This document shows positions 841 through 64,000 of a stretch of 64,000 nt of DNA, in pieces. The translations under genes were made by a program, and so were the position numbers. The stretch comes from Phyllobates terribilis. Lineage: Eukaryota. Position 1 is the stretch's first letter; the number at the start of each line of letters is the position of its first letter. The stretch is taken from positions 480,252,001 to 480,316,000 of the forward strand of contig NW_027362761.1 in assembly GCF_046119375.1 (NCBI RefSeq), in the 5' to 3' direction. The notes beneath the pieces were generated by a model. It worked only from the letters and a program-made list of their open reading frames with translations. It ran no database searches and was not told where the DNA came from.

Positions 841-3800
841 GCTGCCCCCGTCCAGTCGCTTCCATTCCACACAGAACAGCGGTGCCCCCCCCGTCCAGTC
901 GCTTCCATTCCACACAGAACAGCGGTGCCCCCCCGTCCAGTCGCTTCCATTCCACACAGAACAGCGGTGCCCCCCCCATCCAGTCGCTTCCATTCCACAC
1001 AGAACAGCGGTGCCCCCCCCATCCAGTCGCTTCCATTCCACACAGAACAGCGGTGCCCCCCCCATCCAGTCGCTTCCATTCCACAGAGAACAGCGGTGCC
1101 CCCCCGTCCAGTCGCTTCCATTCCACACAGAACAGCTGTGCCCCCCCCCGTCCAGTCGCTTCCATTCCACACAGAACAGCGGTGCCCCCCCCGTCCAGTC
1201 GCTTCCATTCCACACAGAACAGCGGTGCCCTCCCCATCCAGTCGCTTCCATTCCACACAGAACAGCTGTGCCCCCCCCCGTCCAGTCGCTTCCATTCCAC
1301 ACAGAACAGCGGTGCCCCCCCCCATCCAGTCGCTTCCATTCCACACAGAACAGCGGTGCCCCCCCCCGTCCAGTCGCTTCCATTCCACACAGAACAGCGG
1401 TGCCCCCCCCCATCCAGTCGCTTCCATTCCACACAGAACAGCGGTGCCCCCCCCATCCAGTCGCTTCCATTCCACACAGAACAGCGGTGCCCCCCCCCGT
1501 CCAGTCGCTTCCATTCCACACAGAACAGCGGTGCCCCCCCCCATCCAGTCGCTTCCATTCCACACAGAACAGCGGTGCCCCCCCCATCCAGTCGCTTCCA
1601 TTCCACACAGAACAGCGGTGCCCCCCCCCGTCCAGTCGCTTCCATTCCACACAGAACAGCGGTGCCCCCCCCCGTCCAGTCGCTTCCATTCCACACAGAA
1701 CAGCGGTGCCCCTCCCCATCCAGTCGCTTCCATTCCACACAGAACAGCGGTGCCCCCCCCATCCAGTCGCTTCCATTCCACAGAGAACAGCGGTGCCCCC
1801 CCCGTCCAGTCGCTTCCATTCCACACAGAACAGCTGTGCCCCCCCCGTCCAGTCGCTTCCATTCCACACAGAACAGCTGTGCCCCCCCGTCCAGTCGCTT
1901 CCATTCCACAAACAGCGGTGCCCCCCCCATCCAGTCGCTTCCATTCCACACAGAACAGCGGTGCCCCCCCCGTCCAGTCGCTTCCATTCCACACAGAACA
2001 GCTGTGCCCCCCCCGTCCAGTCGCTTCCATTCCACAAACAGCGGTGCCCCCCCCCCGTCCAGTCGCTTCCATTCCACAAACAGCGGTGCCCCCCCCCGTC
2101 CAGTCGCTTCCATTCCACACAGAACAGCTGTGCCCCCCCCGTCCAGTCGCTTCCATTCCACAAACAGCGGTGCCCCCCCCATCCAGTCGCTTCCATTCCA
2201 CACAGAACAGCTGTGCCCCCCCCCATCCAGTCGCTTCCATTCCACACAGAACAGCGGTGCCCCCCCCGTCCAGTCGCTTCCATTCCACAAACAGCGGTGC
2301 CCCCCCACATCCAGTCGCTTCCATTCCACACAGAACAGCGGTGCCCCCCCCATCCAGTCGCTTCCATTCCACACAGAACAGCGGTGCCCCCCCCATCCAG
2401 TCGCTTCCATTCCACACAGAACAGCGGTGCCCCCCGTCCACTCGCTTCCATTCCACACAGAACAGCAGTGCCCCCCCCCGTCCAGTCGCTTCCATTCCAC
2501 AAACAGCGGTGCCCCCCCCGTCCAGTCGCTTCCATTCCACACAGAACAGCTGTGCCCCCCCGTCCAGTCGCTTCCATTCCACACAGAACAGCGGTGCCCC
2601 CCCCCCGTCCAGTCGCTTCCATTCCACACAGAACAGCGGTGCCCCCCCAATCCAGTCGCTTCCATTCCACACAGAACAGCGGTGCCCCCCCAATCCAGTC
2701 GCTTCCATTCCACACAGAACAGCAGTGCCCCCCCCCCGTCGCTTCCATTCCACACAGAACAGCAGTGCCCCCCCCCCGTCGCTTCCATTCCACACAGAAC
2801 AGCGGTGCCCCCCCGTCGCTTCCATTCCACACAGAACAGCGGTGCCCCCCCGTCGCTTCCATTCCACACAGAACAGCGGTGCCCCCCCCGTCCAGTCGCT
2901 TCCATTTCACACAGAACAGCGGTGCCCCCCCCCGTCCAGTCGCTTCCATTCCACATAGAACAGCGGTGCCCCCCCCGTCCAGTCGCTTCCATTCCACATA
3001 GAACAGCGGTGCCCCCCCCATCCAGTCGCTTCCATTCCACACAGAACAGCGGTGCCCCCCCCATCCAGTCGCTTCCATTCCACACAGAACAGCGGTGCCC
3101 CCCCCCATCCAGTCGCTTCCATTCCACACAGAACAGCGGTGCCCCCCCCATCCAGTCGCTTCCATTCCACACAGAACAGCGGTGCCCCCCCCATCCAGTC
3201 GCTTCCATTCCACACAGAACAGCGGTGCCCCCCCCATCCAGTCGCTTCCATTCCACACAGAACAGCGGTGCCCCCCCCATCCAGTCGCTTCCATTCCACA
3301 CAGAACAGCGGTGCCCCCCCCATCCAGTCGCTTCCATTCCACACAGAACAGTGGTGCCCCCCCCATCCAGTCGCTTCCATTCCACACAGAACAGCTGTGC
3401 CCCCCCCGTCCAGTCGCTTCCATTCCACAAACAGCGGTGCCCCCCCCATCCAGTCGCTTCCATTCCACACAGAACAGCGGTGCCCCCCCATCCAGTCGCT
3501 TCCATTCCACACAGAACAGCGGTGCCCCCCCCATCCAGTCGCTTCCATTCCACACAGAACAGCCGTGCCCCCCCCATCCAGTCGCTTCCATTCCACACAG
3601 AACAGCCGTGCCCCCCCCATCCAGTCGCTTCCATTCCACACAGAACAGCGGTGCCCCCCCCATCCAGTCGCTTCCATTCCACACAGAACAGCGGTGCCCC
3701 CCCATCCAGTCGCTTCCATTCCACACAGAACAGCGGTGCCCCCCCCCATCCAGTCGCTTCCATTCCACACAGAACAGCGGTGCCCCCCCCCCATCCAGTC

Positions 3801-4305
3801 GCTTCCATTCCACAGAGAACAGCAGTGCCCCCCCCCGTCCAGTCGCTTCCATTCCACAGAGAACAGCAGTGCCCCCCCCGTCCAGTCGCTTCCATTCCAC
3901 ACAGAACAGCGGTGCCCCCCCATCCAGTCGCTTCCATTCCACACAGAACAGCGGTGCCCCCCCCCCATCCAGTCGCTTCCATTCCACACAGAACAGCGGT
4001 GCCCCCCCCATCCAGTCGCTTCCACTCCACAGAGAACAGCAGTGCCCCCCCCGTCCAGTCGCTTCCATTCCACACAGAACAGCGGTGCCCCCCCCATCCA
4101 GTCGCTTCCATTCCACAGAGAACAGCGGTGCCCCCCCCATCCAGTCGCTTCCATTCCACAGAGAACAGCGGTGCCCCCCCCGTCCAGTCGCTTCCATTCC
4201 ACAGAGAACAGCGGTGCCCCCCTGTCCAGTCGCTTCCATTCCACACAGAACAGCGGTGCCCCCCCCATCCGGTCGCTTCCATTCCACACAGAACAGCGGT
4301 GCCCC
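841..4305. repeat. Minisatellite, ~43-bp unit (cggtg-C6..10-[g/a]tccagtcgcttccattccacacagaacag), about 80 copies
   Basis: Tandem array seen directly. The unit has no stop codon on either strand, which explains the 400-1175 aa ORFs in all six frames. Confidence 0.99.
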
Positions 4306-20332: not shown

Positions 20333-23300
20333 TGTATGTATGTATGTATGTATGTATGTATGTATGTATGTATGTATGTATAAGAATAAAACACGTTGAA
20401 CCTTTTTATTTACGAGAAGCCATTGTGGCTTATGTAGAGGTCGGAATCCAACTCCTGATTGACAACTTGCAAAAGCCCTGGAACTGTTGGCATGTATTAT
20501 ACCTCTGCTCGCCACTGAAGAGCCATAAACATTCAGCGTAGATCGAAACTGGAGGGAATAAAAAGATGGAAACAAACATATAAAGATATAACTCACATAC
20601 AAGATATATGATGAGATATGCGTGACAATTGCAATCCTGAACAAGGACAAAGATATGGAGGTACCTGACAAATTACTACATTTTTTAATCCAACAGCATT
20701 ATGATGGTATAAAACAAGTCTAGTAGTTATTGGGCGCTTACCACATAGAGAGCCATTCTCACCTGCGTGGTATCTGGTTTTGTAGCTCTGATACACTTAC
20801 TTCTGTAGCGCTGACGTCCCTGCCCTCTGCTAGGCAGGGACGCTGCTCCCCTCACCGCTCTGCTCCGTGCCCGGCGTCCTCTCCCCGCTCTGCTGTCAGC
20901 GCGCGCTCCTTCCCGGCGTCCTCCTCCCGCTCTGCTCTCAGCGCGCACTCCTTCCCGGCCCCTGTGCTTAGGGCGCGCGCGCTCCCCTCCTCTTAAAGGG
21001 GCCGCGCGCGCCGTCCTAAGGAGTCCTCGGCCAATGGCCGGAGGACTTCATCATATATAAGGCACCTCCTCCAAAATGGAGGTGCCCGAGCAATGTTGTT
21101 TGCACCTGTGTCTCACCTGTGCTTCAGCCCTCAGGTCCCGCTGCCAGTTACCTGCCAGTTTCCTGCCAGTTACCTGCCTGATTCCTGCCTGAATACTTGT
21201 TACCTGTCTGCCAGTCTGAGGTCCGACGGTCTGCCTTACTACTCCTGTCAGTCTGTCTAAAGGACCAGCCTGCCCGCTCACCTGGGAGCGCACATCAGCT
21301 ACCTGCCTGCTTTCCTGAGGTCCGACGGTCTGCCTTACAACTCCGGTCAGTCTGTCTATGGACCAGCTTGCCCGCTCACCTGGGAGCGCTTCTCCGTTAC
21401 CTGCCTGCTTGCCTACCTGGAGGCTCCGCCGTCACGTGCTGTGACCACCAGCTATTCCAGACTCTTGCCCGCTCACCTGGGAGCGCTTCTCCGTTACCTG
21501 CCTGCTTGCCTGCCCAGAGGCTCCGTTGTCACGTGTTGTGACCATCAGCTACTTCAGACTCTTGTCCGCTCACCTGGGAGCGCTTCTCCATTACCTGCCT
21601 GCTTGCCAGCCCGGAGGTTCCGCCGTCACGTGCCGTGACCACCTGCTATTCCAGAGACTCTCGCTTGCTCACCTGGGAGCACACATCTACCATCTGCCTG
21701 CTAGCCTACCCGGAGGCTCTGCCATCACAGGTCGTACCTACCCTTTACCCAGAGACTGCCCTGATCACTTGCCGTATCTCCCTGTCCGTTCATCCAGAGA
21801 CTGCCACCCGCTCCCTTACAAGGGCCGCCCCCTTGTATAGTAGCTCAGAGGTTCCGCCTCCCAGACCCGTTACAGTTTGCTCGGGCCATGGAACCCGGTG
21901 GCACCCAAGCTCCCTCGCTCTCGGACCTCTGTCTTGAACTGTCCCGTCAGAGGTCCCAACAGGAGGCCATCCTGGGTCACCTGCGGAATGTTAATACTCG
22001 CCTGAACACTCTGCCTGATCCACCAACAACCTCCGCCAGTGCCATATCTTGCAATCCGGCAGCTCCGCTGCCCACTAATACCATGGTATCCTACCCCGGA
22101 CCCCGGCTTTCTGCACCTCCTCGCTTAGGAGGCGACTCCGTCCAGGCTCGGGGCTTCTTAAATCAGTGCACCCTGCATTTTGAACTTTTGTCCTACCAGT
22201 TTAACTCCGACCGGGCCAAAATTGCCTTCATCATGTCCCATCTCACCGGGGAGGCCCTGGCCTGGCTAAATCCTCTATGGGAGAGAGGAGACCCCCTGGT
22301 GTCCAACTTGCCTGCTTTTCTCACGGCTTTCCGGAAAGTCTTCGACGAACCCGGACGGAAGACCTCATCTGCATCATCGTTGCTACGCCTCCGTCAGGGG
22401 AGTCTCACCGTGGGCCAATATGCCATACGGTTCCGTACCCTTGCCTCGGAGCTGACCTGGGATAACGACGCTCTGGTTTCCGTCTTCTGGGAGGGTCTGT
22501 CCGGCCGTATTAAAGATGAACTTGCCGGTCGGGACACTCCTACCACTCTCGATGACTTAATAACTCTTGCCACCCGGATTGACCTACGGTTCCAGGAGCG
22601 TGCCAGAGAGGTCACCCGTGAGAGGAGGTTACCACGTCTAGCTCCTACTTTTCAGAAACCCGTCACTCCTTCTGTCTCTAACCAGGTACACCCTCCTGAG
22701 CCTATGCAGGTCGACCAGACCAAGATGGTCAAGACCCGTCAGGACTTACGCCGTGCCGAGGGGACCTGCTTCTACTGTGGCAGTAAGGAGCACCAGATCC
22801 GTGCCTGCCCGGAAAGGTCGGGAAACGCCTGTGTCTAGGTTCGCTCAGAGAGGTCCACCTAGACAAGAATAAATCCTCTCCATCCCTGCTGTTGTCAGTT
22901 TCAATCGTCTACGGGGAGAACCGTTATTTCGAACTAGCCCAACTGGACTCTGGAGCAGCCGGGAATCTTATTTCACAGTCCCTGGTAGAGAAATACCGCA
23001 TCCCCACCAAACCTCTGGCTGTACCCTTGTCTGTGGCTACCGTGGATGGGGGGCTCTTACCACGCCCCATCCAACTCATCACCGAATCCATTACTCTGCA
23101 GGTGGGAATGCTGCATTCTGAGAGTATCTCCTTTCATGTTCTGCCTGGACTCTCTCACGCCCTCTTGCTAGGTCTGCCTTGGCTCCAGAGACATGCACCC
23201 GTGCTTGACTGGCAAACCGGAGAAGTCCTTCGCTGGGGACAAGACTGTCATAAGACCTGCCTGGTTCCCGTCCATCCCGTCCGTCCCTCTCCTACCCCAG

Positions 23301-26300
23301 CTAATCTACCTGGACTTCCAATTCCTTATTGGTCTTAAGCTGATGTCTTTAATAAAAAGGAGGCAGAGACATTACCCCCTCATAGACCATACGACTGTCC
23401 CATCGACCTGTTACCCGGTACTACTCCTCCCCGTGGGCGTATTTATCCTTTATCCGCTGCTGAGACCCGGTCGATGTCCGAATATATTGAGGAGAATCTG
23501 GCCAGGGGATTCATCCGGAAATCTACCTCCCCGGCGGGAGCAGGCTTCTTTTTCGTTAAAAAGAAGGACGGCTCTCTCCGTCCCTGTATAGACTATAGAG
23601 GCCTAAACCAGATCACGGTGAAGAATAAGTACCCCCTCCCGCTCATTCCAGAATTATTTGATCGTCTGAGGGGGGCTAGAATCTTCACCAAACTAGACCT
23701 CCGTGGGGCGTACAACCTGGTTCGTATCCGTCAAGGGGATGAATGGAAGACGGCATTCAACACCCGGGACGGCCACTATGAATACCTGGTAATGCCCTTT
23801 GGTCTCTGTAACGCTCCTGCCGTTTTTCAAGAGTTGGTCAATGACATCTTCCGGGACCTTCTCTACTCCTGCGTAGTGGTGTACCTGGACGACATCTTGG
23901 TCTTCTCTCCGGATCTCCAGACTCACCGGAGGGACGTTCGTCAGGTCCTGCTCAGGCTCAGGCAGAATTACCTCTTCACTAAATACGAGAAGTGCCTCTT
24001 TGAGCAGACCTCGCTTCCGTTTTTGGGCTACATTATTTCTCAGACCGGCCTACGAATGGATCCAGAGAAACTATCTGCCATCGAGAAATGGCCTCGACCG
24101 GAGGGGCTGAAGGCCATTCAGCGGTTCCTGGGCTTCGCCAACTACTACCGCCTCTTCATACCACACTTCTCTTCCCGGACTGCCCCAATTTCCGCGCTCA
24201 CCCGTAAGGGTACTAATCCCAAAGAGTGGCCGCCCGAAGCAGAAGAAGCCTTTCTTTCCTTAAAACAGGCCTTCTCTGCATCGCCCGGACGGCAACAAGC
24301 AGTTCTTCCTGGAAGTGGACGCCTCCTCCTCTGGAGCTGGAGCGGTACTTACTCAAAAATCTTCTTCCGGGAGGATGGTAACTTGCGGCTTCTTCTCTAA
24401 ACTCTTCTCCTCCTCAGAGCGCAATTATTCCATAGGAGATCGAGAGTTATTGGCCATCAAACTGGCATTGGAGGAGTGGCGTTACCTGCTTGAGGGGGCT
24501 CTTCACCCGGTAATAATTTACACTGACCACAAGAACTTGGCTTATCTCCAGCATGCCCAGAGACTTAACCCGCGCCAAGCCCGGTGGTCCTTGTTTTTTG
24601 CTCGTTTTGATTTTGTCCTTCATTTTCGCCCGGCTGACAAAAACGTCAAGGCGGACGCCTTGTCTCGATCCTTTCTGGTATCTGATCTCGAGGAAGATCC
24701 GAAACACATCATCGATCCCGCCAGAGTAATGCAGGTGGCTCCCGTGAGTCTAAATCTTCTTCCTCCCGGAAAGACGTTCGTATCAGTACCTGATCGGGAG
24801 AAGATCCTTCACTGGGGTCACTCGTCTAAACTGGCTGGCCACGCTGGTCAGAAGAAGACCCTCCAGCTTATTTCCCGGCACTACTGGTGGCCTACCCTGC
24901 ACAAGGATGTAATAGACTTTGTTTCTGCCTGTGTGTCCTGCGCCCGCAACAAGGTTCCGAGACATCTGCCAGCCGGTCGCCTCCTTCCGCTCCCAGTACC
25001 TGCTGCCCCCTGGCAGCATATTGCAATGGACTTCATAACTGACCTCCCACTCTCTGCCGGTTGTACGGTCATTTGGGTGGTCGCTGACCGCTTCTCCAAG
25101 ATGGCTCATTTCGTTCCCCTGCCAGGCCTCCCGTCTGCACCCGAGCTAGCTAGAGACTTTATTCGTCACATCTTCCGTTTTCATGGCCTGCCCCTCCACA
25201 TCGTGTCGGATCGTGGGGTACAGTTCACCTCACGCTTCTGGAGAGCCACTTGTAAACTACTAGACGTCTCCCTGGACTTCTCTTCCGCTTACCACCCACA
25301 GTCCAATGGTCAAGTGGAGCGGATCAATCAGAACCTGACCAGTTACCTCCGGCACTTCGTTAATGCCCACCATTCTGACTGGGTGGATCTCCTACCATGG
25401 GCCGAGTTCTCTTACAATAATCACGAGAGCGAATCCTCCTCCAAATCCCCGTTTTTTGTAGTCTTTGGTCAGCATCCTCGGATTCCTTTTCCTGTCTCCA
25501 CCTCGGTGGACAACCCGGCTGCGGAATCTCTCGTTAGCAAATTTTCCTCCATTTGGGAGAGTACCCGATCCGCACTCCTTCAGTCTTCCGAGCGTATGAA
25601 AAGACACGCTGACAAAAAACGTCTGGACCCTCCTCAATTCCGTCCTGGGGATAAAGTCTGGCTCTCGTCCAAATATGTCCGGCTCAAGATCCCTTCCTAT
25701 AAGTTAGGGCCTCGGTTCATCGGCCCACTGGAGGTCATCAGTCAGATCAACCCGGTGGCCTATAAATTGAAACTCCCGGCCAACTTACGGATCCCTAACT
25801 CCTTCCATGTAGCTCTCCTCAAACCTGTGGTACTTAACTCTTTTTCCAAGTCTACAGGTACGCCTCCTGCTCCGGTTTCTGCTGAGGACGAGTTTGAGGT
25901 AGAGAACATTCTTGCCACCAAAAGGGTAAGAGGAAAGACCTTTTTTCTGGTAGATTGGAAGGGGTTTGGTCCTGAGGAGAGAACGTGGGAGCCCCGGGAG
26001 AACATCCATGCCCCTCTCATCCTAGCTAAATTTCTGTCTGGCCTAAAAAAGGGGGGGCCTAAAGGGGGGGGTACTGTAGCGCTGGCGTCCCTGCCCTCTG
26101 CTAGGCAGGGACGCTGCTCCCCTCACCGCTCTGCTCCGTGCCCGGCGTCCTCTCCCCGCTCTGCTGTCAGCGCGCGCTCCTTCCCGGCGTCCTCCTCCCG
26201 CTCTGCTCTCAGCGCGCGCTCCTTCCCGGCCCCTGTGCTTAGGGCGCGCGCGCTCCCCTCCTCTTAAAGGGGCCGCGCGCGCCGTCCTAAGGAGTCCCCG

Positions 26301-29300
26301 GCCAATGGCCGGAGGACTTCATCATATAGAGGGCACCTCCTCCAAAATGGAGGTGCCCGAGCAATGTTGTTTGCACCTGTGTCTCACCTGTGCTTCAGCC
26401 CTCAGGTCCCGCTGCCAGTTACCTGCCAGTTTCCTGCCAGTTACCTGCCTGATTCCTGCCTGAATACTTGTTACCTGTCTGCCAGTCTGAGGTCCGACGG
26501 TCTGCCTTACTACTCCTGTCAGTCTGTCTAAAGGACCAGCCTGCCCGCTCACCTGGGAGCGCACATCAGCTACCTGCCTGCTTTCCTGAGGTCCGACGGT
26601 CTGCCTTACAACTCCGGTCAGTCTGTCTATGGACCAGCTTGCCCGCTCACCTGGGAGCGCTTCTCCGTTACCTGCCTGCTTGCCTACCTGGAGGCTCCGC
26701 CGTCACGTGCTGTGACCACCAGCTATTCCAGACTCTTGCCCGCTCACCTGGGAGCGCTTCTCCGTTACCTGCCTGCTTGCCTGCCCGGAGGCTCCGTTGT
26801 CACGTGCTGTGACCATCAGCTACTTCAGACTCTTGTCCGCTCACCTGGGAGCGCTTCTCCATTACCTGCCTGCTTGCCAGCCAGGAGGTTCCGCCGTCAC
26901 GTGCCGTGACCACCTGCTATTCCAGAGACTCTCGCTTGCTCACCTGGGAGCACACATCTACCATCTGCCTGCTAGCCTACCCGGAGGCTCTGCCATCACA
27001 GGTCGTACCTACCCTTTACCCAGAGACTGCCCTGATCACTTGCCGTATCTCCCTGTCCGTTCATCCAGAGACTGCCACCCGCTCCCTTACAAGGGCCGCC
27101 CCCTTGTATAGTAGCTCAGAGGTTCCGCCTCCCAGACCCGTTACAACTTCAATAGTGTTAATCTGCAAAGCCGGACACAGAGCGCAGGCAAGTATCACAA
27201 TTGCAAAATCAGACACAGCCCACCCATGTCATTCAAAAGACCCCAGACCACGCCAACATCATGTGCTATTTTGGACTTTCTTATACGGCGAACCTGGTAG
27301 TATCCCAGCAAAGATCACTATGGATGTCCCTAAATATGAACAATACGTGTTCAACCAGACAGAACATATGTTATTAGCACAGGTGATGACTGTAACACTC
27401 CTTACATTCCAGTCACCAGTGAGACCATCAGCAGCACTGAGATACTCGCTGGCTCGTACAACATCATCAATATCCGAGAAGAAATCTAAGTAGTTTTGGT
27501 GAAGGTATAAGTTAAATAATTCACTTCGCATATGTGACTTCTCTACAACGGCCTGTAGGGAAGAAACAAGAAAAACATTAAAGAACTAATAACAAAAACA
27601 CTAAAAACTAGACTGTCAGCAAGAAAAGAGTAACAGACTTGTGTGATTCAGGGTCCAGGGATGGAGAATGGACAAGGCAAATCACAAAATATTCACCTGC
27701 ATCTTCATCCTTGTGACCCAGTCCTAAATGGCCCCTCTAAACTGTACCGAAAATCTACCTGCTCTTCACAATACTCCCTAAGTTATTGCAGAAGTCCTTT
27801 CAGACAATGCATTTTTATGGTGGTATAACTCATGTAGGTAACAACTGGCCATTGGTAGAATCAGCTCTGACCAGAGTAATGACGATCCATGTACACCACA
27901 ATGTGGGATGTGTTGGGTTAAGTGAGGAATAGGAAATTAAAGCAAAGTTCTGCTAATCCCCTCTGTAAAACATGAACCATCTTTACCTTTAAACAGAACA
28001 CAGTCCATAACCATTTTAGTTTACAAAGAGTCATACATAATAGCATCCATACTGATAAAAAAAAATGTCTCACCTCTGGAAGAACCAGCAGCAGGTCTCT
28101 GTCATGTTGTGATAAATGTGCAGGCAATTTATAGCAGTCCAAGTCAGATTCTGGAGCCTCCCCTGGAAATACATGTGATAGAGTATATCACCAAATAAAG
28201 TCTCCATTCCTAATTCTCTAGTGCTGTGTACAGTTCATGGACTGGGACCATTTATACACGCATGTACTGATGTTACAAACATCATGGTAATGTGTCTATG
28301 CAGATGATTTTCCTCCTATATGAAGATATTGCAGCCAAACTATAGAGCTTGTAATGTCCGCTGGGCAAAGGTCTAAAATCCTGACGAGGCCCTCAAGCAC
28401 ATGGGTCCTTTTACAGGACGGATTTTTTTTTTGACTGTCACAAGCACAAATAATGATTGCAAGTAGGGGAAATCGCACATTCGACTATTCGTTGGTTTGT
28501 TCTCACTGTTATAATCGGCAGCATATGTGCTTCTGACCAGTGATAACTTTGAGTAGTCAGATGAAAATCAAGCATTTGCTCACTTGTCAGCTGATTGATG
28601 GGTTCATTTATATTGGGCAATGATTAAAAAGAACAAACTTTTGTTCTCCTGATCATTGGCCCTTTAAAACAAAGCCTTCAGTCCATAAGGTTACTGAATT
28701 TATTACAATATCAGTAAATTAACAATAAAACAACAAAAATAATCTTAATTCGCATGTCACACAATGGACTCACATCTCAGTCCTGGCTTATGTTATTGAT
28801 ATTGCTTATCTATATATCTATCTATCAAACAAAAGAATAGCAGCACAGTCTTCAGTCAGTGGTGAAATCCCTTCCATGAACACAGTTAAGAAGGAGCTCT
28901 GGCTATACATAAAAAGATAAGGAAAATAGAGGCAGCGCTCAAGGGGCCCTAGTGAAGAAAACGTGGAGTGTCATTCACCCACCTAGGTGCAAATACAAAA
29001 TATACACATGAAAAACTAACAAAGTATATTAATTGCAGCATTAGGGAAAGATTTAACAGTAAAATGCCTTGAATAATTCTTACTTTTACAGTGAAGTATT
29101 TTCCCCAATGCTCGGAACAAGAAAAGAGAAGCATCTTTGCCTCCGATGGCTTGAATTTCATCAGCTTTGTCTCCAACATTAGACCATTTTTTTTTATTCT
29201 GTGATTTGGATGATGTTTTTGACATCTTTGAGGGTTTTCCTTTCTTCTTAGACCAGAATTCACTTGTCAAGGAAGAATCTGTAATCAATGGAGAAATAGG

Positions 29301-32300
29301 AATAGTAGTTTCAGGCTACGATTACTGGTAACAGGCTTACTCCTGTGTGAGACATGTAATGACAATCTACTCTCCTCACTGATCTCACTGCAGAGCTGTG
29401 TGTGATTATAAAATGCAGTCAGTATAGCAGAGCCGAGTGTCATTACCAACACTTCTTCAGCTTTTTTCTCATGACAGCAATTGTGTGAGAGTGGCAGTAC
29501 AACAGAACAGAGCATTGTTTCATAAACACTTCTAGCAGCTCTTCTCTCAGTGGTGTTAGCTCTGATGTACTGCCCCTCCCCTCACACTGGCTGCTCTGAG
29601 AAGAAAGTTGAAGAAGCGTTTGTAATTACACTTACCTCTGCTCTACTCCCAGCACTTTGTAATCACACAGCTCTACAGTGAAATCAATGAGGCGAGAAGG
29701 CTGTCTGTCATGACACAGGAGCAAGCCTGTTCGGGGTAACCCTTGACTCTGATCTCTCCTTCAAACCTCATATCCAAGCCCTTTCCACTTCCTGCCGACT
29801 CAAACTCAAAAATATCTCCCGGATCCGCACATTCCTCATCCATGAATCTTTAAAAACTCTAGTGCACGCCCTCATCATCTCCCGCCTTGACTACTGCAAC
29901 CTAATGCTCTGTGGCCTCCCTTCCAATACTCGCACACCCCTCCAATCTATCCTAAACTCTGCTGCCCGACTAATCCACCGGTCCCCTCGCTATGGCCTCT
30001 TCTCTCTGTCAATCCCTTCACTGGCATGCAAAGCCATCCACAACCTGTCTCCTCCATATATCTGTGACCTAGTCTCCCGATACTTACCTGCACACAACCT
30101 ACGATCCTCACAAGATCGCCTTCTCTACTCCCCTCTTATCTCCTCCTCCCACAATCGCATACAAGATTTCTCCCGTGCTTCCCCCCTACTCTTGAATTCT
30201 CTACCCCAATATATCAGACTCTCGCCTACCGTGGAAACCTTCAAAAGGAACCTGAAGACCCACCTCTTCCGACAAGCCTACAGACTGCAGTAACCCTCGC
30301 TCCACGACCAGCTCTACCCTCACCTACTGTATCCTCACCCATCCCTTGTAGACTGTGAGCCCTCGCAGGCAGGGTCCTCTCTCCTCCTGTACCAGTCGCT
30401 GACTCGTTTTTGTTCAAATTATTGTACTTGTTATTTGCCATGTATACCCCTTTTAAACATGTAAAGCGCCATGGAATTAATGGCGCTATAGTAATAAATA
30501 ATAATATAAATAATAATAATATTGTGGGGGTGTGTTCTCCGCCCCTCCCGCATGACACCTCCTGCTTATGATTGGTCAATTTCATGCAAGGGAAGTAGTA
30601 CAAGTTCCAATAGTAAGGTGTTAATTTCACATCCACGTCATGGATTAGTTGGTCTTATCATAAGTTATAACCAAAACTTTACAAGGTAATATCTCTGCAA
30701 CAGAGAGGAGAAATTATAAAACAAAAATTACATTTTATTCAGCTCTGCAGCCACTATTCCAAGATGTTTCCAGTTTAACATGCTCAAACTGGTGAAAGGT
30801 CCTCTTTAAGTCACAAGTTCAGTCTTACCTTTAAGTGCTGAGAACTGAAGACTATTAATAGCGCTTCTAATATCCCCCGAACATCCAGAGCACAAGAGCT
30901 CCAGAGCTTCCTTATCAGGAATAATGAATTTTCCTCCGCTCTGAAACAGAGGACAGCACGGTGCACATCACAATGCAGCTTTGTAGCGCATATACTTCGA
31001 GATCCATGATATTATGAAGCTCCATAAAGACCATTTTATTTAAGATCACACATTTACTAAGAGAAATTTCAAGGATAACAATGTAATATGTTCAATGTAG
31101 AGAAAAAAAATCTGTTTTGTTTCCCTCTTCTAAACTGCTGCCACCGCTTTGTTAGCACTCTAAAGAGCTTAATTTCATCCCTGTAGCTGGGAAAAGTCTT
31201 TTTGTCTAGCAACATATGCAAATCGGCTTGAGTAGTCCAGTGGGCGGGTCTGGCCCATACTTCACGCCTTTTAAGAGCCAATCAGGCTCCTTTACAACTA
31301 ATTGATATATAAAGCGGAAGCAGCAAACCGTGGTTGTTGTGTGCGTGCTTTCAGGATTTCAATGAATGTTCAATTAAGCATAGCATTTCACAGGACATTT
31401 GTAGGATTATTGTTGTATAGCGAAAGGATTAATTTCCTGTTTCTACTGCTGCAAGAGTTACACGAGATATCAATCTATCCATGCTATCTGTTATGATTTT
31501 TAACTATTGCTGATATATTGCTCGTTTATACGTACCTTTTAAAAATTCAATAAAGGTGTGAAATATAAATGGTTTATGAGAAGGTGTCTAAACCATGCAC
31601 ATACTGACCGTAGTAGCTTCAGTAGCTGCAATCCGGCTCAGCACTTTCATCATGCTGGTGGGGGCAACAGGATTGAAGCTGCAAGAGAACAGGAGTACTT
31701 AGTACACATGTATTTTATAATAAATTGTATGATTGGTTTTCAGTGAAACCTCTTGGTGACAGAAAATTATCCGATTATTTGGGTGGCTTACTCATAGCAG
31801 AGGGCTGGTATACATAATATATAGTGGAACTGAAAATCTGTCACAAAAAAATCTAGTCTGGATAAGGCCCCTTTCAAATTGCATTATTCCCCACTCTCCG
31901 TGGTGGGCCTGTCGGTGCTTAAACCCCCCACCCCACCTCCACCCCCATGCGCAAAATGGAATTCTTGCGTATACGCCGACGGGGCTATTGGCTATAAAGG
32001 TGTAGACAGGGTCAATGTGTGCTGTGTCGTGCATCATTTTCGGGCATATATACGCCTACTGGAGGCGAACACTCAGACGTACACTGTGTACACTGAGTGT
32101 CACCTCCAGTAGGTGTATACACCCAAAAATTATGCAAAACAGAGCTCACTTTCTGACTCCGACAGCACCTTTGTAGTCAAAGGCCCCGTCGGCGCATCCA
32201 GTTTTGTGGTGGGATTCAGAAGTAAGCCCCACTGAGATTACGGCGCATGAGGAAGAATGCAATGTGAAAGAGCCCAAGTGGAAAAAAAGACATACATGAG

Positions 32301-35300
32301 CTTCTCACAAAATTAGAATACAGTATAATCAAATAGTTAATTTATTTCAGTTCTTCAATACAAAAAGTGAAACTCATTATATAGTCATTACAAACAGAGT
32401 GATCTATTTCAAGTGTTTATTTCTGTTAATGCTGATGATTATGGCTTACAGCCAATGAAAACACAAAAGTCATTATCTCAGTAAATTAGAATACTTTATA
32501 ACAACAGCTTGAAAAATGATTTTAAAATCCGAAGTGTTGTCCTACTGAAATGTCTGTTCAGTAAATGCTCTCAATACTTGGTCTGGGGTCCTTCTGCATT
32601 AATTACTGCATCAATGCGGTGTGGCATGGGGGTGATCAGCCTGTGGCGCTGCGGAGGTGTTATGGAAGCCCAGGTTGCTTTGATAGCAGCCTTCAGCTCA
32701 TCTGCATTGTTGGGTCTGGTGTCTCATCTTCCTCTTGAGAATACCCTATAGATTCTCTATGGGGTTAAGGTCAGGCGAGTTTGCTGGCCAATCAAGCACA
32801 GTGATACTGTTGTTTATAAACCAGGAATTGGTACTTTTGGCAGTGTGGACAGGTGCAAAGTCCTTCTGGAGAATGAAATTTCCATCTCCAAAAATCTTGT
32901 CGACAGAGGGCAGCATGAAGAGGTCTAAAATTTCCTGGTAGATGGCTGATCTGACTTTGGTCTTGATAAAACACAGTGGACCTACACCCGCAGATGACAT
33001 GGCTCCCCAAACCATTACTGATTGTGGAAACTTCACACTAGACCTCAAGCAGCTTGGATTGTGGCCTCTCCACTCTTCCTCCAGACTCTGGGACCTCGAT
33101 TTCCAAATGAAATGCAAAATTTACTTTCATCTGAAAACAACACCTTGGACCACTGAGCAACAGTCCAAGACTTTTTCTCCTTGGCCCAGCTATGACGCTT
33201 CTGGCTTTGTCTATTGGTCATGAGTGGCTTGACACAAGGAATGTGACACTTGTAGCCCATGTCCTGGATACGTCTGTGTGTGGTGGCTCTTGAAGCAATG
33301 TCTCCAGCAGTAATTCACTCATTGTGAATCTCACCCAAATGTTAACAATCCTTTCAAGGCTGCGGTTATCCCGGTTGCTTGTGCACCTTTTTCTACCACA
33401 CTTTTTCCTTCCACTCAACTTTCCATTAATATGCTTGGATACAGCACTCTGAACAGCCAGCTTCTTTAGCAATGACCTTTTGTGGCTTACCCTCCTTGTG
33501 GAGTGGGTCAATGACCACCTTCTGGACATCTGTCAAGTCTGCATTCTTCCCCATGATTGTGGAGCCTACTGAAACAGACTAAGGACCTTTGTAAACGCTT
33601 CAAAAGCCTTTGCAGGTGTTTTTTTGTTAATTATTCTAATTAACTGAGATAATGACTTTTGTGTTTTCATTGGCTGTAAGCCATAATCATCAACATTAAC
33701 AGAAATAAACACTTGAAATAGATCACTCTGTTTGTAAAGACTTTATATACGAGTTTCACTTTTTGTATTGAAGAACTGAAATAAATTAACTTTTTGATGA
33801 TATTCTAATTTTGTGAAAAGCACCTGTAGGTCTATCCAGTTCAATCTTGATCAATTAAAAATTATTGCTACACTATTAATAATGCCACTAGTTTTAGAAA
33901 AGCATCCAGCCCTTTTACAAAAGCTGATATATCGTCCACCATGTTGTGATCGGGCATTCCACAGTCTGACTGCTCCAACTGTAAAGAATCCTTTCCTATT
34001 TAGCTGGCGGAATCACCTTTCCTCTACATGTAGTGAATGTTCCCTGGTCTTTTGTAAGGTCCTTGGAAGGAATAAATCATGTGCCTGTCCTTTGTATTAA
34101 CCACACATATATTTATACATATAAATGGGGTCACCGCTGAGGAATCTTTTTTTCTAAGCTGAATAAGCCCAACTTTTCCAACCAATCGTTTTCCAATCTA
34201 GTTGTCCGCTTTGGAACTGACTAACTGCCCAATATCTATTTTAAAATGTGGAGCCTAAAACTGTATCCCATATTCTAGATATGACCTCACAAGTGATTTA
34301 TAAAAGGGGTGATCATACATTTGTATCACAGGATTTTCTCTTTTTACGCACCCTAAAATCTAGTTTGCTTTTTCAGCTGCTGCCTGACATTGAGTGCTGC
34401 TTAGCTTACCAGAAACCTGAATACCCAACATCCTTTTGTTCTGTAATCCAGAGTATATTTCCACTGAATGTATATGCAGCAACAGGATTACCCCAGTCTA
34501 GGTGCATTATTCTACATTTATCAACATTAAACCTCATCTGTCATGTGTTTGCCCACGCAGGCATCTTATCTAGATCGTTCTGTAATATTCTATAATCTAG
34601 CTCAGTTTTTATCATTCTACATATTGTGTCATTAGCAAATTTAACATTTTATTCTCCATCCCATCCACAATGTCATTAATAAAAAGAATTGGTCATAACA
34701 CAGATCCTTGTGCCCCCACTGCTAACTAGACAATTTAGAGAACGTATCACTTACAATGACTTTTTTACTGTCCCTTAACAATTTTTTTTTTACTTCTCTG
34801 CATATAGTACTCCCTAGTCCTCGCTTCTGACATAAGAGCAGCAGTAAAAGATATCAGACTGACCAGTTGTATCTGACTGCCGCTGATTGGCTGCAGCGGT
34901 CACAGCGCATACAGTGGCATGTAAACGTTTCGGCACCCCTGGTATAAATTACTGTTACCGTGCCACTGTTATACATGCCACTGTAGTGTCACATGAGCTC
35001 TGAGATATAGTGCCAACATCTCTGGAATGGCACTGGTCCAGGAAATATGTGATTTTTTGGGTTTCTGGGGCCACTTTAGCATTTAAGAAGGGGTTGTCCA
35101 GTAGCGGATACACCCCCTTAAAATATGGCAATATTTTGGATTGTGATAAATTGACAGGTCAGAATAAAGAAGGCCTTCACCTTATATTGCAAACACACAA
35201 GTCATCCTGGATTTCTTTTGGGAACAGTCTTCTTTGATGGCTGTCACCACTCAGACTGTCTGATATTATGAACACTAGGGGGCAGCGACCAGTCTTTACA

Positions 35301-44300: not shown

Positions 44301-47300
44301 GTGGTGTGTGTCAGGGCTCTTTATATCACTGTAAGCAATTGCAGACACCTGTGCTAATTAGTTTGGCAGGTGTGTCCAATGAAAGGCAAGACTACTTAAG
44401 AAGGCTCTCTCACATTATTAAGCAGCCTACATTTTCTGCCAAAATGGGAAAGAAAAAGGATGTGTCGGCTGCTGAGAAGCAACAAATTGTGGAGTGTTTA
44501 GGTCAAGGCATGACTACAATCAACATTGTGCGATGATCAGGATGAAGTGTCTTGGCAATCAAGAAGTATGTAGCTGATTCACAGTACACACGTGTGCGTG
44601 CTGATAAGGGCAAATTGAGGACTCTTTCCTACAGGCAATTACGTCAGGTTGAAAGAGCAGCGGCAAAAAAGCCTTGTCATAGCAGCAGACAAGTTTTTGA
44701 AGCTGCTTGTGCCTCCAACGTCCCCCGAACAACAAGATGCAGGGTCCTTCAGAGGTTTGCAGCTGTGCATACGCCATCCTGTCGACCTCCTCTATCCACT
44801 TCACACAAGCAGAAACGGCTCCAGTGGGCCAAACATTACATGAAGACTGATTTCAAAACTGTTTTGTTCACGGATGAGTGCCGTGCAGCGCTCGATGGTC
44901 CAGATGAATGGAGTGGAGGATGGCTGGTTGATGGACACCCCACGCAAACACGGCTACAGCGCCAACAAGGAGGAGGTGGAGTAATGTTTTGGGCTGGAAT
45001 CATGGGGAGAGAGATTGTCGGCCCCTTTAGGATCCCTGAAGGCGCTAAAGATGAACTCCATAATGTATGTGGATTTTCTCAAACAGCACTTCCTGCCATG
45101 GTTCAAGAAGAAGAACCGTGTATTTCACAGCAAGATCATTTTTCTGCATGATAATGCACCATCTCATGCTGCACATAAAACATCTGCATCTCTGGCTGAT
45201 ATGGGCATAAAAGGGGACAAACTTATGGTGTGACCCCCATGCTCCCCTGACCTCTACCCCATTCAGAACCTTTGGAGCATCATTAAAAGGAGTGTCTATG
45301 ATGGCGGGAGGCAGTTCACATCTAAGCAACAGCTCTGGGAGGGTATTCTGTCCTCATGCAAAACAATTGAAGCAGAAACCATCCAAAACCTGACAAATTC
45401 AATGGACGAGAGAGTTCAGAAGCTCCTTTCGAACAAGGGGTCCTATGTGAAAATGTAACATCACCTAGAATAAAGTTTTGAGTTGAAAACTGTTTGATTT
45501 CAGTTTCTAACAACCTGCTAATGCTTATAATTTCAAAAATGACCATTTTTTTGGTCTTTATTAAAATGAAAAGGTTGATCGAAAAGTTTGGGGGATCTAA
45601 GAGTGTGGCAGCCCAGTAGTCATGATTACTTCGAATTCTGACAATATGAGGGTCATGCTGCAGGTAGTGCAGCAAGAAGGCACTTATGTGTCTTGCGCAT
45701 CTCGGAGCCCCAAAATTATTTTCCGGGCTAGATGCAGCTAAAAATTATTTTTAATTTTAAATCTGGTGAAGCTTATTATAGATGGCCTAATAGGATCAGT
45801 GCTGCACAATGTTACAAAGCCCAAATTATTTTCCAGTCAAGATACAGATAAACATGATTAGTAATTTGAAAGCTTAAAACGGTTGGTAGGGTGATTTTAA
45901 CCAATTATCAAGCTTTTACTCTCCCCAGGATGACACAGGGGTAGAAAAGTCGTTTCGGATCCATGATTTGTTCATCTTTATGAACGTGAGTCTGTCTACA
46001 TTATCAGTGGAGAGCCGCGTGCGCTTATCTGTCAGCACACCACCAGCAGCGCTGAACACACGTTCAGACAGAACGCTGGCTGCGGGGCATGACAAGATCT
46101 CCAAGGCGTAAGTGGCTAGCTCCGGCCATTTATCCAGATTGGAAGCACAAAAAGAGCAAGGGTCCAGTGACACAGTCATGGCTTCAATGTTTACTTGGAG
46201 ATACTCCTGTACCATCGTCTCTAGGCGTTGACTATGTGTCAGACTTCTTGTCTCCTGTGGCCTTGCAAAGGATGGGCTAAAAAAGTGGTGAAATGATTCC
46301 GCAAAATTGATGTTACCAGCAGATACTGTGGTTCTGTTACGGTTTGAGTGCTGAACACTTGACGGTCCCACGGTTGGCAAGTTGGAACTGTGAGATTCAC
46401 TACGTGCACCACTGGTATTTTGTGGAAAAGCACATGTAAGATTCTGCAACAGTCTCTGCTGATACTCCTGCATGCGTGCATCCCTTTCTATGGCAGGAAT
46501 AATTTCTGCAAATTTACTTTTTTACCGGGGATCTAACAGTGTGGCAACCCAGTAGTCAGGATTATTTCTAATTCTCACAATTCGAGGGTCATGTTGCAGG
46601 TAGTGCAGCAAGAAGGCACTCATGTGTGTTGCGCATCCAGGAGCACCAAGTCCCTGTTGTGTTGGTGGCGAGGTAACAATCATGCTTCCTTCCTCTGTCC
46701 TCTCCCCCCAACCTCGCACAACAGAAATGTGATCAAGGTCTCCCTCATCTGATGAGTCTTCCATCAGTTCGTCCTCCACTTCTTCCTGGGCTCCTGCACC
46801 TTCCTCACTAGTTTGGCTGCTACCATGCGCCCTGGTAAAATCATCTCCCCCACCCTCACATGCCTGCCGCCTTGGTGCTGCCGACCGTCTGGACCTTGCA
46901 GATGTTAGCCCTTCCGCATACAACTCCTCCTCCTCTACTTCCTCCACCTCATCTTGTGCCACCACCTGACTCCGAATTCTGTTTAACATGTGCTCCAGCA
47001 TGTAAATCACCGGAATAGTCATGCGGATAATGGCATCGTCAGCACTAAACATCTTCGTCGCCATTTCAAAACTGTGCAGAAGGGTGCATAGGTCCCTGAT
47101 CTGAGACCAGTCCTCCAGCGTGATTTGCCCCACCTCTGAATCTCGTTGGCCCAGGCTATACGTCAGAACGTATTGCACCAGGGCTTGTCGGTGCTGCCAC
47201 AGTCGCTGCAACATGTGCAGAGTTGAATTCCACCGGGTAGGCACATCGCATTTTAGCCGGTGAAGTGGCAGGCCCAACGACTTCTGTAGAGATGTAAGTC

Positions 47301-63558: not shown

Positions 63559-64000
63559 GCTGCTGCCAAGAGAGCAGAGTGCACCCATATACTGCCCAGT
63601 ACCCAACCTACTGCTGCCAGGAGAGCAGAGTGCACCCATATACTGCCCAGTACCCAACCTACTGCTGCCAGGAGAGCAGAGTGCACCCATATACTGCCCA
63701 GTACCCAACCTACTGCTGCCAGGAGAGGAGAGCGCACTCATATACTGCCCAGTACCCAACCTACTGCTGCCAGGAGAGCAGAGTGCACCCATATACTGCC
63801 CAGTACCCAACCTACTGCTGCCAGGAGAGGAGAGCGCACCCATATACTGCCCAGTACCCAACCTACTGCTGCCAGGAGAGCAGAGTGCACCCATATACTG
63901 CCCAGTACCCAACCTACTACTGCCAGGAGAGCAGAGTGCACCCATATACTGCCCAGTACCCAACCTACTGCTGCCAGGAGAGCAGAGTGCACTCATATAC
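63559..64000. repeat. 51-bp minisatellite in AK6 intron 1 (runs off the window)
   Basis: Unit ctactgctgccaggagagcagagtgcacccatatactgcccagtacccaac, at least 8 copies. Confidence 0.97.

What the first reader, a model, noticed from the sequence alone, without database searches (positions are those of the whole stretch)
21084..21886. Self-priming primer-binding site in the LTR retrotransposon (no tRNA PBS)
Seen: after the 5' LTR there is no TGG-type tRNA PBS. Instead, TTGCTCGGGC (21877-21886, 2 nt from the LTR end) is the exact reverse complement of GCCCGAGCAA at 21084-21093, which lies 24-33 nt downstream of TATATAA (21054-60), where the transcript should start. A 9-bp hairpin GGCACCTCC/GGAGGTGCC (21061-21086) overlaps this site. 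Established: fission-yeast Tf1 primes reverse transcription with the first ~11 nt of its own mRNA, and this was proposed for the Tf1/sushi group. Inference: this frog element self-primes across an ~790-nt loop made of the repeat-rich R/U5.
Basis: partly seen in the sequence, partly recalled or inferred. Interest (0 to 1): 0.7.

Follow-up and report, generated by a model that had tools for sequence, protein, structure and literature searches.

The report
Self-priming frog chromovirus retrotransposon
A very abundant frog jumping gene has no tRNA landing site; the ten bases where its DNA copying should start pair with the predicted first ten bases of its own RNA, and related families keep that pairing with different letters, so it likely primes itself, a trick already known from yeast Tf1 and already proposed for this group.

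Summary
The element is a young Ty3/gypsy chromovirus: LTRs 20804-21874 and 26075-27145, TSD ACTTC, at least 13,381 copies of its LTR-PBS junction. The 10-mer after the 5' LTR complements 21084-21093, 30 nt after TATATAAG. In 41 chromovirus loci whose LTR end was fixed from the 3' LTR, 37 pair at 9-10 of 10 (25 perfectly, 7 letter versions); control 10-mers 0 and 3 of 41. In ten representatives of seven families, 7 of 10 positions covary, with TATA-like boxes at -27 to -32. Tf1-type self-priming is likely. It is known (Tf1) and proposed in print for Tf1/sushi elements, and the scan noted it before in this genome. The start site and the cut were not observed. The 9-bp hairpin is confined to this lineage (weak in its sister) and overlaps a YY1-like motif. 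Tf1's two flanking helices are not above chance in this family. New here: about 0.4% of copies carry ACC right after the PBS, arising at least 19 times. That fits write-back from primers starting 2-3 nt upstream, but a local fold-back explains it too. New member of a known kind.

The parts
20799..20803 (+). Left target-site duplication ACTTC
20804..21874 (+). 5' LTR, 1071 bp, TG...CA
   Evidence: 8 differences to the 3' LTR
21031..21035 (+). CCAAT box (motif name recalled)
   Evidence: sequence
21054..21061 (+). TATA box TATATAAG, -30 to the predicted +1; two of the 8 LTR differences fall in it in the 3' LTR
21061..21086 (+). 9-bp inverted repeat, lineage-specific; covers the first 3 nt of the primer when U3 is in the RNA
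21073..21081 (+). YY1-like motif AANATGG(AG) across the hairpin loop and right arm; the N varies (A, T, C) between lineages
   Evidence: consensus AANATGGCG from PMC1088961
21084..21093 (+). Predicted self-primer GCCCGAGCAA = predicted first 10 nt of the RNA
21141..21728 (+). Tandem repeats in R/U5 (11, 99 and 97 nt units); +1 to LTR end varies 684-997 nt among copies
21850..21856 (+). U5 stretch GGTTCCG that could pair with TGGAACC at the gag start (21889-21895); not above chance in this family
21875..21876 (+). 2-nt spacer GT between LTR and PBS (G plus one base in all families examined)
21877..21886 (+). Primer-binding site TTGCTCGGGC
21887..21889 (+). C right after the PBS (14 of 16 representatives) and site of the recurrent CAT-to-ACC change in other copies
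21888..22838 (+). gag (Retrotrans_gag, Ty3_capsid, DUF4939, CCHC knuckle)
22820..22865 (+). Predicted -1 frameshift signal: GGGAAAC (22820-26) followed by a stem-loop (22832-65, -17.4 kcal/mol)
22787..26267 (+). pol (PR, RT, RNase H, IN, SH3, chromodomain at about 25893-26033); broken in this copy by an in-frame stop at 23336-38 and a frameshift near 24264-24400
26061..26071 (+). Polypurine tract
26075..27145 (+). 3' LTR, second copy of the primer 10-mer at 26355-26364
27146..27150 (+). Right target-site duplication ACTTC

Best explanation
This is a Ty3/gypsy chromovirus whose PBS pairs with a 10-nt stretch of its own LTR, and it likely primes reverse transcription Tf1-style with the predicted first 10 nt of its own RNA. 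Shown: the complementarity, its covariation across families, and the TATA-like box about 30 nt upstream. Inferred: (1) Pol II starts at G21084 (pyrimidine at -1, G at +1). (2) Those 10 nt pair with the PBS across the roughly 780-nt R/U5 loop, in cis or from the partner RNA in the particle. (3) The element's RNase H cuts after about nt 10, by analogy with Tf1's cut between nt 11 and 12. (4) RT extends the freed end over the 2-nt spacer and U5/R. (5) Plus-strand strong-stop DNA copies the primer back, which would regenerate the PBS and keep the pair matched; the C after the PBS may be the copy of the cap. This copy is itself broken in pol, so the mechanism is a family property.
For: Complementarity beyond chance: 2 of 20,000 shuffles near the TATA. 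Family copies: primer unchanged in 35 of 35 loci, PBS in 32 of 35; two of the 35 are the window itself. Stepwise compensation within the lineage, sites placed by homology and not by pairing: GCCCGAGCAA, GCCCGTGCAA and GCCTGTGCAA, each with its matching PBS; 12 of 23 placed loci perfect, 22 of 23 at 9 or more. Blind test: 41 of 81 loci had an LTR end defined by the 3' LTR; 25 of 41 pair 10/10 and 37 of 41 at 9 or more; control 10-mers reach 9 in 0 of 41 and 3 of 41, and 10 in none. Ten representatives of seven families (RT 56-90% identical to the window): positions 3-8 and 10 covary; 89 of 90 pairs in nine distinct versions, reached by 1 of 362,880 label permutations, a test that ignores relatedness. 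Best TATA-like 8-mer at -27 to -32 and pyrimidine/G at -1/+1 in 16 of 16 representatives. All 10 pairs are in the MFE and centroid of the 843-nt predicted leader, mean pair probability 0.78, falling to 0.24 or less if the RNA starts 10 or more nt upstream. Literature.
Against: No start site, cleavage product or cDNA was observed. The leader as a whole is not more stable than shuffles (z +1.59), and the helix is in the MFE of only 9 of 16 representatives. The two flanking helices that Tf1 needs are not above chance in this family: U5:leader 189 of 1000 shuffles as good, primer-adjacent:U5 689 of 1000. Four of 41 loci fail (6-8 pairs; they look truncated, decayed or mis-bounded), and 40 of 81 loci could not be scored. 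No poly(A) hexamer was found in this family's R/U5, so R is undefined. The ACC junction class has a second explanation.
Confidence: 0.88

Rival explanations
1. The primer is the same 10-mer, but it is cut out of the inside of a longer RNA that starts further upstream.
For: No TSS data. About 0.4% of copies carry PBS extensions that match positions -1 to -3 or -4, so some primers may be longer at the 5' end.
Against: TATA-like box at -27 to -32 and pyrimidine/G at -1/+1 in 16 of 16 representatives. Pairing stops exactly at +1 in 13,381 of 13,537 junctions. An upstream start lowers the predicted pairing to 0.24 or less.
Confidence: 0.06
2. A host tRNA 3' end, tRNA half or other small RNA primes, and the LTR match is incidental.
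For: The host tRNA set was barely sampled, essentially tRNA-Lys(UUU) only; best identity to any held tRNA is 7 of 10 for this primer and up to 8 of 10 for others.
Against: No TGG after the LTR in 16 of 16 representatives. Nine PBS versions each track their own LTR letters. A plant-like chromovirus on a small contig, run through the same LTR test, shows a TGG-type PBS and only 6 nt of self-match (L185).
Confidence: 0.03
3. The duplex is a structural element (packaging, dimerisation or control of gag translation at the adjacent AUG), and priming happens some other way.
For: The gag AUG is 1 nt behind the PBS. A U5:AUG-region helix is well above chance in four other families (7 of 16 representatives, at most 13 of 1000 shuffles).
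Against: The fixed geometry (CA, 2-nt spacer, 10 bp, 5' end at TATA+30) is that of a primer site, and no other primer site is seen.
Confidence: 0.03
4. On the ACC junction class only: it comes from a local fold-back of the nascent minus strand (GG-AAC-CC clamp copying CCGGTG just downstream), not from copying a primer that began upstream.
For: ACC creates a perfect 6-bp DNA hairpin (-8.4 versus -3.8 kcal/mol) and needs no indel. RTs, including Tf1 RT, extend 2-nt clamps in vitro (PMC3035444, passages). The one matching case in the sister family (L357, GC inserted) is also compatible with dinucleotide slippage.
Against: The AC insertion (6 loci, 3 independent sites by flank and position) and ACCT (1 locus) fit the upstream letters and give only weak hairpins, -4.3 and -5.5.
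Confidence: 0.45
5. On the 9-bp hairpin only: it is a by-product of two DNA promoter sites (a C-rich Sp/KLF-like box and a YY1-like site), not an RNA gate that masks the 3'-LTR copy of the primer.
For: The loop letters AA-ATGG are kept while only the N varies (AAAATGG 79, AATATGG 8, AACATGG 8 of 98 matches to a pattern that itself required ATGR; some loci counted twice). The sister family reads AAACATGGCGG, matching AANATGGCG. Five families self-pair without the hairpin.
Against: One compensatory change between the two sister lineages (CCTCC/GGAGG versus CCGCC/GGCGG). The hairpin is predicted to block PBS pairing for RNAs that include U3.
Confidence: 0.55

Closest known systems
Tf1/Tf2 of Schizosaccharomyces pombe (and Tj1, Tosmo1-3, Tcry1)
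   Same: Chromodomain Ty3/gypsy element; PBS complementary to the 5' end of its own RNA; no tRNA PBS (PMC7175516, bioRxiv 2022.12.06.519325, PMC4600332; passages).
   Different: 10 bp rather than 11; 2-nt spacer; CCHC knuckle and predicted -1 frameshift, which the fission-yeast elements lack; loop of about 780 nt of tandem repeats; the two flanking 'pretzel' helices are not above chance in this family; nothing shown by experiment.
Vertebrate Tf1/sushi group = GyDB V-clade (Sushi-ichi, Amn-ichi/-ni/-san; Amn-san in Xenopus tropicalis)
   Same: RT groups with Xenopus and fish chromovirus proteins (99/98 support); domain set and -1 frameshift match the group description; self-priming is stated as a common feature of the group (the source, Butler et al. 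2001, was not held).
   Different: No named reference sequence (Sushi-ichi, Amn-san) was in my tree, so the family name is open. The seven-family covariation table and the junction-variant count were not in the passages I read.
Plant Tcn1-clade chromoviruses (REXdb, PMC6317226)
   Same: Meets the paper's self-primer rule: at least 10 bp, starting 0-5 bp after the 5' LTR.
   Different: Animal host, different clade.

Membership tests
Ty3/gypsy chromovirus | gag-PR-RT-RH-IN order | tested here: met
   Pfam
Ty3/gypsy chromovirus | Chromodomain at the C-terminus of IN | tested here: met
   PF00385 E 2.8e-11
Ty3/gypsy chromovirus | TG...CA LTRs, 5-bp TSD, PPT | tested here: met
Tf1/sushi group (V-clade) | RT phylogeny with vertebrate/fungal chromoviruses | tested here: inconclusive
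   Groups with Xenopus and fish chromovirus RTs (99/98) away from a plant-like element, but no named Tf1, Sushi-ichi or Amn-san reference was in the tree, and the root is at the midpoint
Tf1/sushi group (V-clade) | No tRNA-type PBS; at least 10 bp complementary to the 5' LTR, starting 0-5 bp after it | tested here: met
   rule
Tf1/sushi group (V-clade) | -1 frameshift at gag-pol and CCHC in Gag (non-fission-yeast members) | tested here: met
   pol is in the -1 frame, GGGAAAC plus stem-loop (predicted signal), knuckle CFYC-4-H-4-C; zf-CCHC scored just under its cut-off
Tf1-type self-priming | Self-primer is at the 5' end of the RNA | tested here: inconclusive
   Promoter geometry fits in 16 of 16 representatives; no read-level TSS data
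Tf1-type self-priming | Three-duplex 'pretzel' (two helices flanking the PBS) | tested here: inconclusive
   Not above shuffles in this family; U5:leader helix strong in four other families, primer-adjacent helix in one; a partner elsewhere in R/U5 is not excluded
Tf1-type self-priming | RNase H cleavage releases the primer | not testable with these tools
   needs biochemistry
tRNA-primed LTR element | TGG-starting PBS complementary to a tRNA 3' end | tested here: not met
   0 of 16 representatives
Half-tRNA-primed element | PBS complementary to an internal tRNA stretch | tested here: inconclusive
   only tRNA-Lys(UUU) and one other gene call were held; best 7 of 10

The most novel reading that the evidence does not exclude
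The genome's 13,500 junction copies are a fossil 5'-RACE of a vertebrate self-primer: RT writes the capped primer back into the PBS every cycle, leaving a C for the cap and ACC or AC when transcription began 2-3 nt early, while a TATA box plus a YY1-like site pins the start and a U3 hairpin masks the decoy copy in the 3' LTR. That would be in-vivo evidence of tRNA-free priming in an animal, across a loop that can be 170-1000 nt long and without Tf1's full pretzel.
Probability: 0.35. Interest if true: 0.6.

Novelty: new member of a known kind. Interest (0 to 1): 0.36.

Why it matters
In the passages I read, self-priming is shown by experiment only for yeast Tf1 and inferred elsewhere. Here it has strong comparative support in a vertebrate family with over 13,000 junction copies, plus a countable genomic trace that may record the primer's 5' end. 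Elements that need no tRNA would escape the 3' tRNA-fragment targeting described for tRNA-primed elements (PMC7472051, seen only as a search listing), which may bear on their expansion in a 10.6-Gb genome (inference). The kind itself is known, so the surprise is modest.

Tried and rejected
Sequencing runs: no RNA holder listed on record; four contig-only runs were laid and say nothing on the start site. Host tRNAs: the Rfam search returned 63 scored matches; the 13 loci scanned were all tRNA-Lys(UUU). BEL/Pao elements as tRNA-primed negative controls: 9 of 20 gave an LTR pair, none showed TGG directly after the called LTR end, so they are not such controls; longest self-match 0-11 nt, the 11 at a probably mis-called end. 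A PBS left on 3' LTR ends (retained primer): L144 looked like one but is its TSD plus chance. C-to-A right after the PBS as a 1-nt extension: 0.265% of copies against a 0.21% background, rejected. Replicating the junction test: family F2 gave 0 variants (its canonical count was not taken) and F7 gave 3, one compatible but also explained by slippage. The reciprocal control (changes on the LTR side or in the spacer) was not run. One search used a pattern that required a GC end and is biased; the counts come, but the LTR ends of four representatives (L172, L173, L176, L181) rest on that pattern. Papers not held: PMC109269, PMC1369541, PMC1563812, PMC6388632, PMID 11428463; what they say is taken second-hand. 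Figure 4D of the S. osmophilus preprint and the REXdb supplements were not seen and may bear on primer length, spacer and pretzel geometry. Searches listed no paper whose title or abstract start concerns self-priming in frog chromoviruses or junction variants as a primer record; most subscription papers are outside the library.

Full report
Observation. All coordinates check out. The 5' LTR is 20804-21874 and the 3' LTR 26075-27145 (8 differences in 1071), with ACTTC on both sides. After TTACA come GT, then TTGCTCGGGC, then C and the gag ATG. The 10-mer is the exact complement of 21084-21093, whose first base is 30 nt after the start of TATATAAG. In 20,000 LTR shuffles such a match arose 106 times anywhere and twice near the TATA. 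The 9-bp inverted repeat is there as described.

The element. Pfam gives gag (Retrotrans_gag, Ty3_capsid, DUF4939, a weak CCHC), protease, RT, RNase H, integrase, SH3 and a chromodomain. pol is in the -1 frame behind GGGAAAC and a stem-loop. This copy has an in-frame stop and a frameshift in pol. The closest named RT proteins are from poison frogs (97-99% identity), then other frogs and fish. In an RT tree of 37 rows it groups with Xenopus and fish chromoviruses (99/98); five of 23 loci were dropped for a missing or short RT, and no named reference was included. The exact LTR-end/PBS junction occurs 13,381 times followed by C and 156 times followed by another base.

Conservation and covariation. 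Among 35 close loci (two are the window) the primer is unchanged in 35 and the PBS in 32, while the distance from +1 to the LTR end runs from 684 to 997 nt. In 28 more distant loci of the lineage, placed by homology alone, 23 could be scored: 12 pair perfectly and 22 at 9 or more of 10, in three versions that differ stepwise on both sides. I fetched 80 loci of 10 kb from three Pfam hit lists and added the window. In 41 of these 81 the LTR end could be set from the 3' LTR; 31 lacked a usable 3' LTR end, 6 had no shared ACA and 3 no gag. Of the 41, 25 pair 10/10 (seven versions) and 37 pair at least 9/10; the 10-mer 30 nt further on reached 9 in 0 of 41 and the 10-mer behind the 3' LTR in 3 of 41. 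Some of these loci are near-duplicates, so 41 overstates independence. Across ten representatives of seven families, positions 1, 2 and 9 are fixed and the other seven change on both sides; only the true assignment among 362,880 permutations reached 89 of 90 pairs. In 16 of 16 representatives the best TATA-like 8-mer within 120 nt lies at -27 to -32 (scores 6-8 of 8 against a recalled consensus), -1 is a pyrimidine and +1 is G.

RNA structure. The predicted 843-nt leader has all ten pairs in its MFE and centroid, mean probability 0.78, but it is not more stable than shuffles overall, and the helix is in the MFE of 9 of 16 representatives. Tf1 needs two further helices (bioRxiv 2022.12.06.519325, passage). 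A U5:leader helix at the gag start is strong in four families (7 of 16 representatives, at most 13 of 1000 shuffles) but not in this one (189 of 1000); the primer-adjacent helix passes in one family only. So the central duplex is firm and the pretzel is not shown here.

The hairpin. It is strong in this lineage (0 of 500 shuffles in 5 of 5 representatives), weak in the sister family (24-36 of 500) and absent or borderline in five others, so priming does not generally need it. With +1 at 21084 it is not in the 5' end of the RNA; it can form only in the 3'-LTR copy or in read-through RNA, where it lowers predicted PBS pairing to 0.24 or less. Its loop and right arm also read AANATGG, a YY1-like motif (consensus in PMC1088961, passage), with only the N varying. 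YY1 sets the start of human L1 (PMC11602158, search listing only). A promoter reading and an RNA-gate reading both remain open.

Junction variants. An earlier scan note suggested write-back of the primer into the PBS. I tested a separate prediction on 100 of the 156 non-C junctions: 36 read ACC in place of CAT, 6 have AC inserted, 2 read ACT, and 1 each read ACCT, ACAC and ATC. ACCT is the complement of positions -1 to -4 of the LTR. On a tree of 129 copies with the junction left out, this label (46 rows) needs 25 changes, at least 19 forced by well-supported branches, so it recurs, although it is more clustered than shuffled labels. ACC is about 0.4% of copies against 0.028% for any adjacent triple change, none of which recurred (22 in 78,001 site-copies, 77 rows after dropping duplicates and long branches). 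Against the write-back reading: ACC also perfects a local 6-bp hairpin, and RTs extend 2-nt clamps in vitro (PMC3035444, passages). The insertion and ACCT classes favour the upstream template but are few, and two other families gave no clear replicate. The base after the PBS is C in 14 of 16 representatives although -1 is never G; copying of the cap would explain this (inference).

tRNA rival. No representative has TGG after the LTR. The host tRNAs recovered were essentially tRNA-Lys(UUU) only, best match 7 of 10, so half-tRNA priming is not excluded by search; it is made unlikely by nine PBS versions that each track their own LTR. A plant-like chromovirus on a small contig shows the expected TGG-type PBS and no self-match.

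Prior knowledge. Tf1 primes with its first 11 bases after an RNase H cut (PMC7175516, passage). Self-priming is called a common feature of the Tf1/sushi group, vertebrates included (passages). The vertebrate V-clade includes Xenopus Amn-san, the most abundant frog LTR element (PMC2774666 and PMC4131045, passages; the latter has no occurrence of 'PBS' or 'priming'). PMC3601003 and PMC2864245 were read as passages. The original Levin and Butler papers were not held. The scan has noted the same signature in this genome and in others.

Verdict. A real, well-supported self-priming signature in a new member of a known group. Confidence 0.88, interest 0.36; the junction record is the part worth a follow-up.

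Noticed in passing
L248, L249, L250 (G000 BEL/Pao elements; also L238, L241, L253): BEL/Pao copies lack a TGG PBS; in 3 of 8 tested, the complement of 11 PBS bases is split (5+6) across a 190-194 nt GT...AG gap inside the LTR, as earlier scan notes describe for other genomes. No chance control was run.
   Followed up: partly
G000 small contigs (e.g. C4154, C4590, C5587; L066-L067, L096-L125, L184-L185): The top Retrotrans_gag and SH3_Tf2-1 hits lie on small high-numbered contigs (the two sized ones are about 60 kb) and look like plant elements; one has a tRNA-iMet-type PBS (label recalled). Possible plant contamination in the assembly.
   Followed up: partly
window 26325-26332 versus 21054-21061: Two of the 8 LTR differences fall in the TATA box of the 3' LTR (TATAGAGG versus TATATAAG).
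   Followed up: no
L146-L164, L172-L173: A 14-19 bp U5:gag-start helix with different letters in four families, resembling the retroviral U5:AUG duplex (comparison recalled).
   Followed up: partly
G000:C4:752-753 Mb and C5:164 Mb: Dense clusters of sister-family chromovirus copies, apparently tandem or segmental arrays.
   Followed up: no
window 845-4305 and 63560-64000: Tandem arrays of 43 bp (81 copies) and 51 bp; the first gives stop-free frames on both strands.
   Followed up: no
window 46522-49110, minus strand: 862-codon open frame with a BED zinc finger, probably a hAT-type transposase or ZBED gene.
   Followed up: no
window 32288-33833: Long inverted repeats (over 200 bp, about 93%) around 1.1 kb, probably a Tc1-like DNA transposon remnant.
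   Followed up: no
G000:C1:817 Mb and C11:574-575 Mb: Large tandem clusters of tRNA-Lys(UUU) genes, about 1,050-bp period on C1.
   Followed up: no
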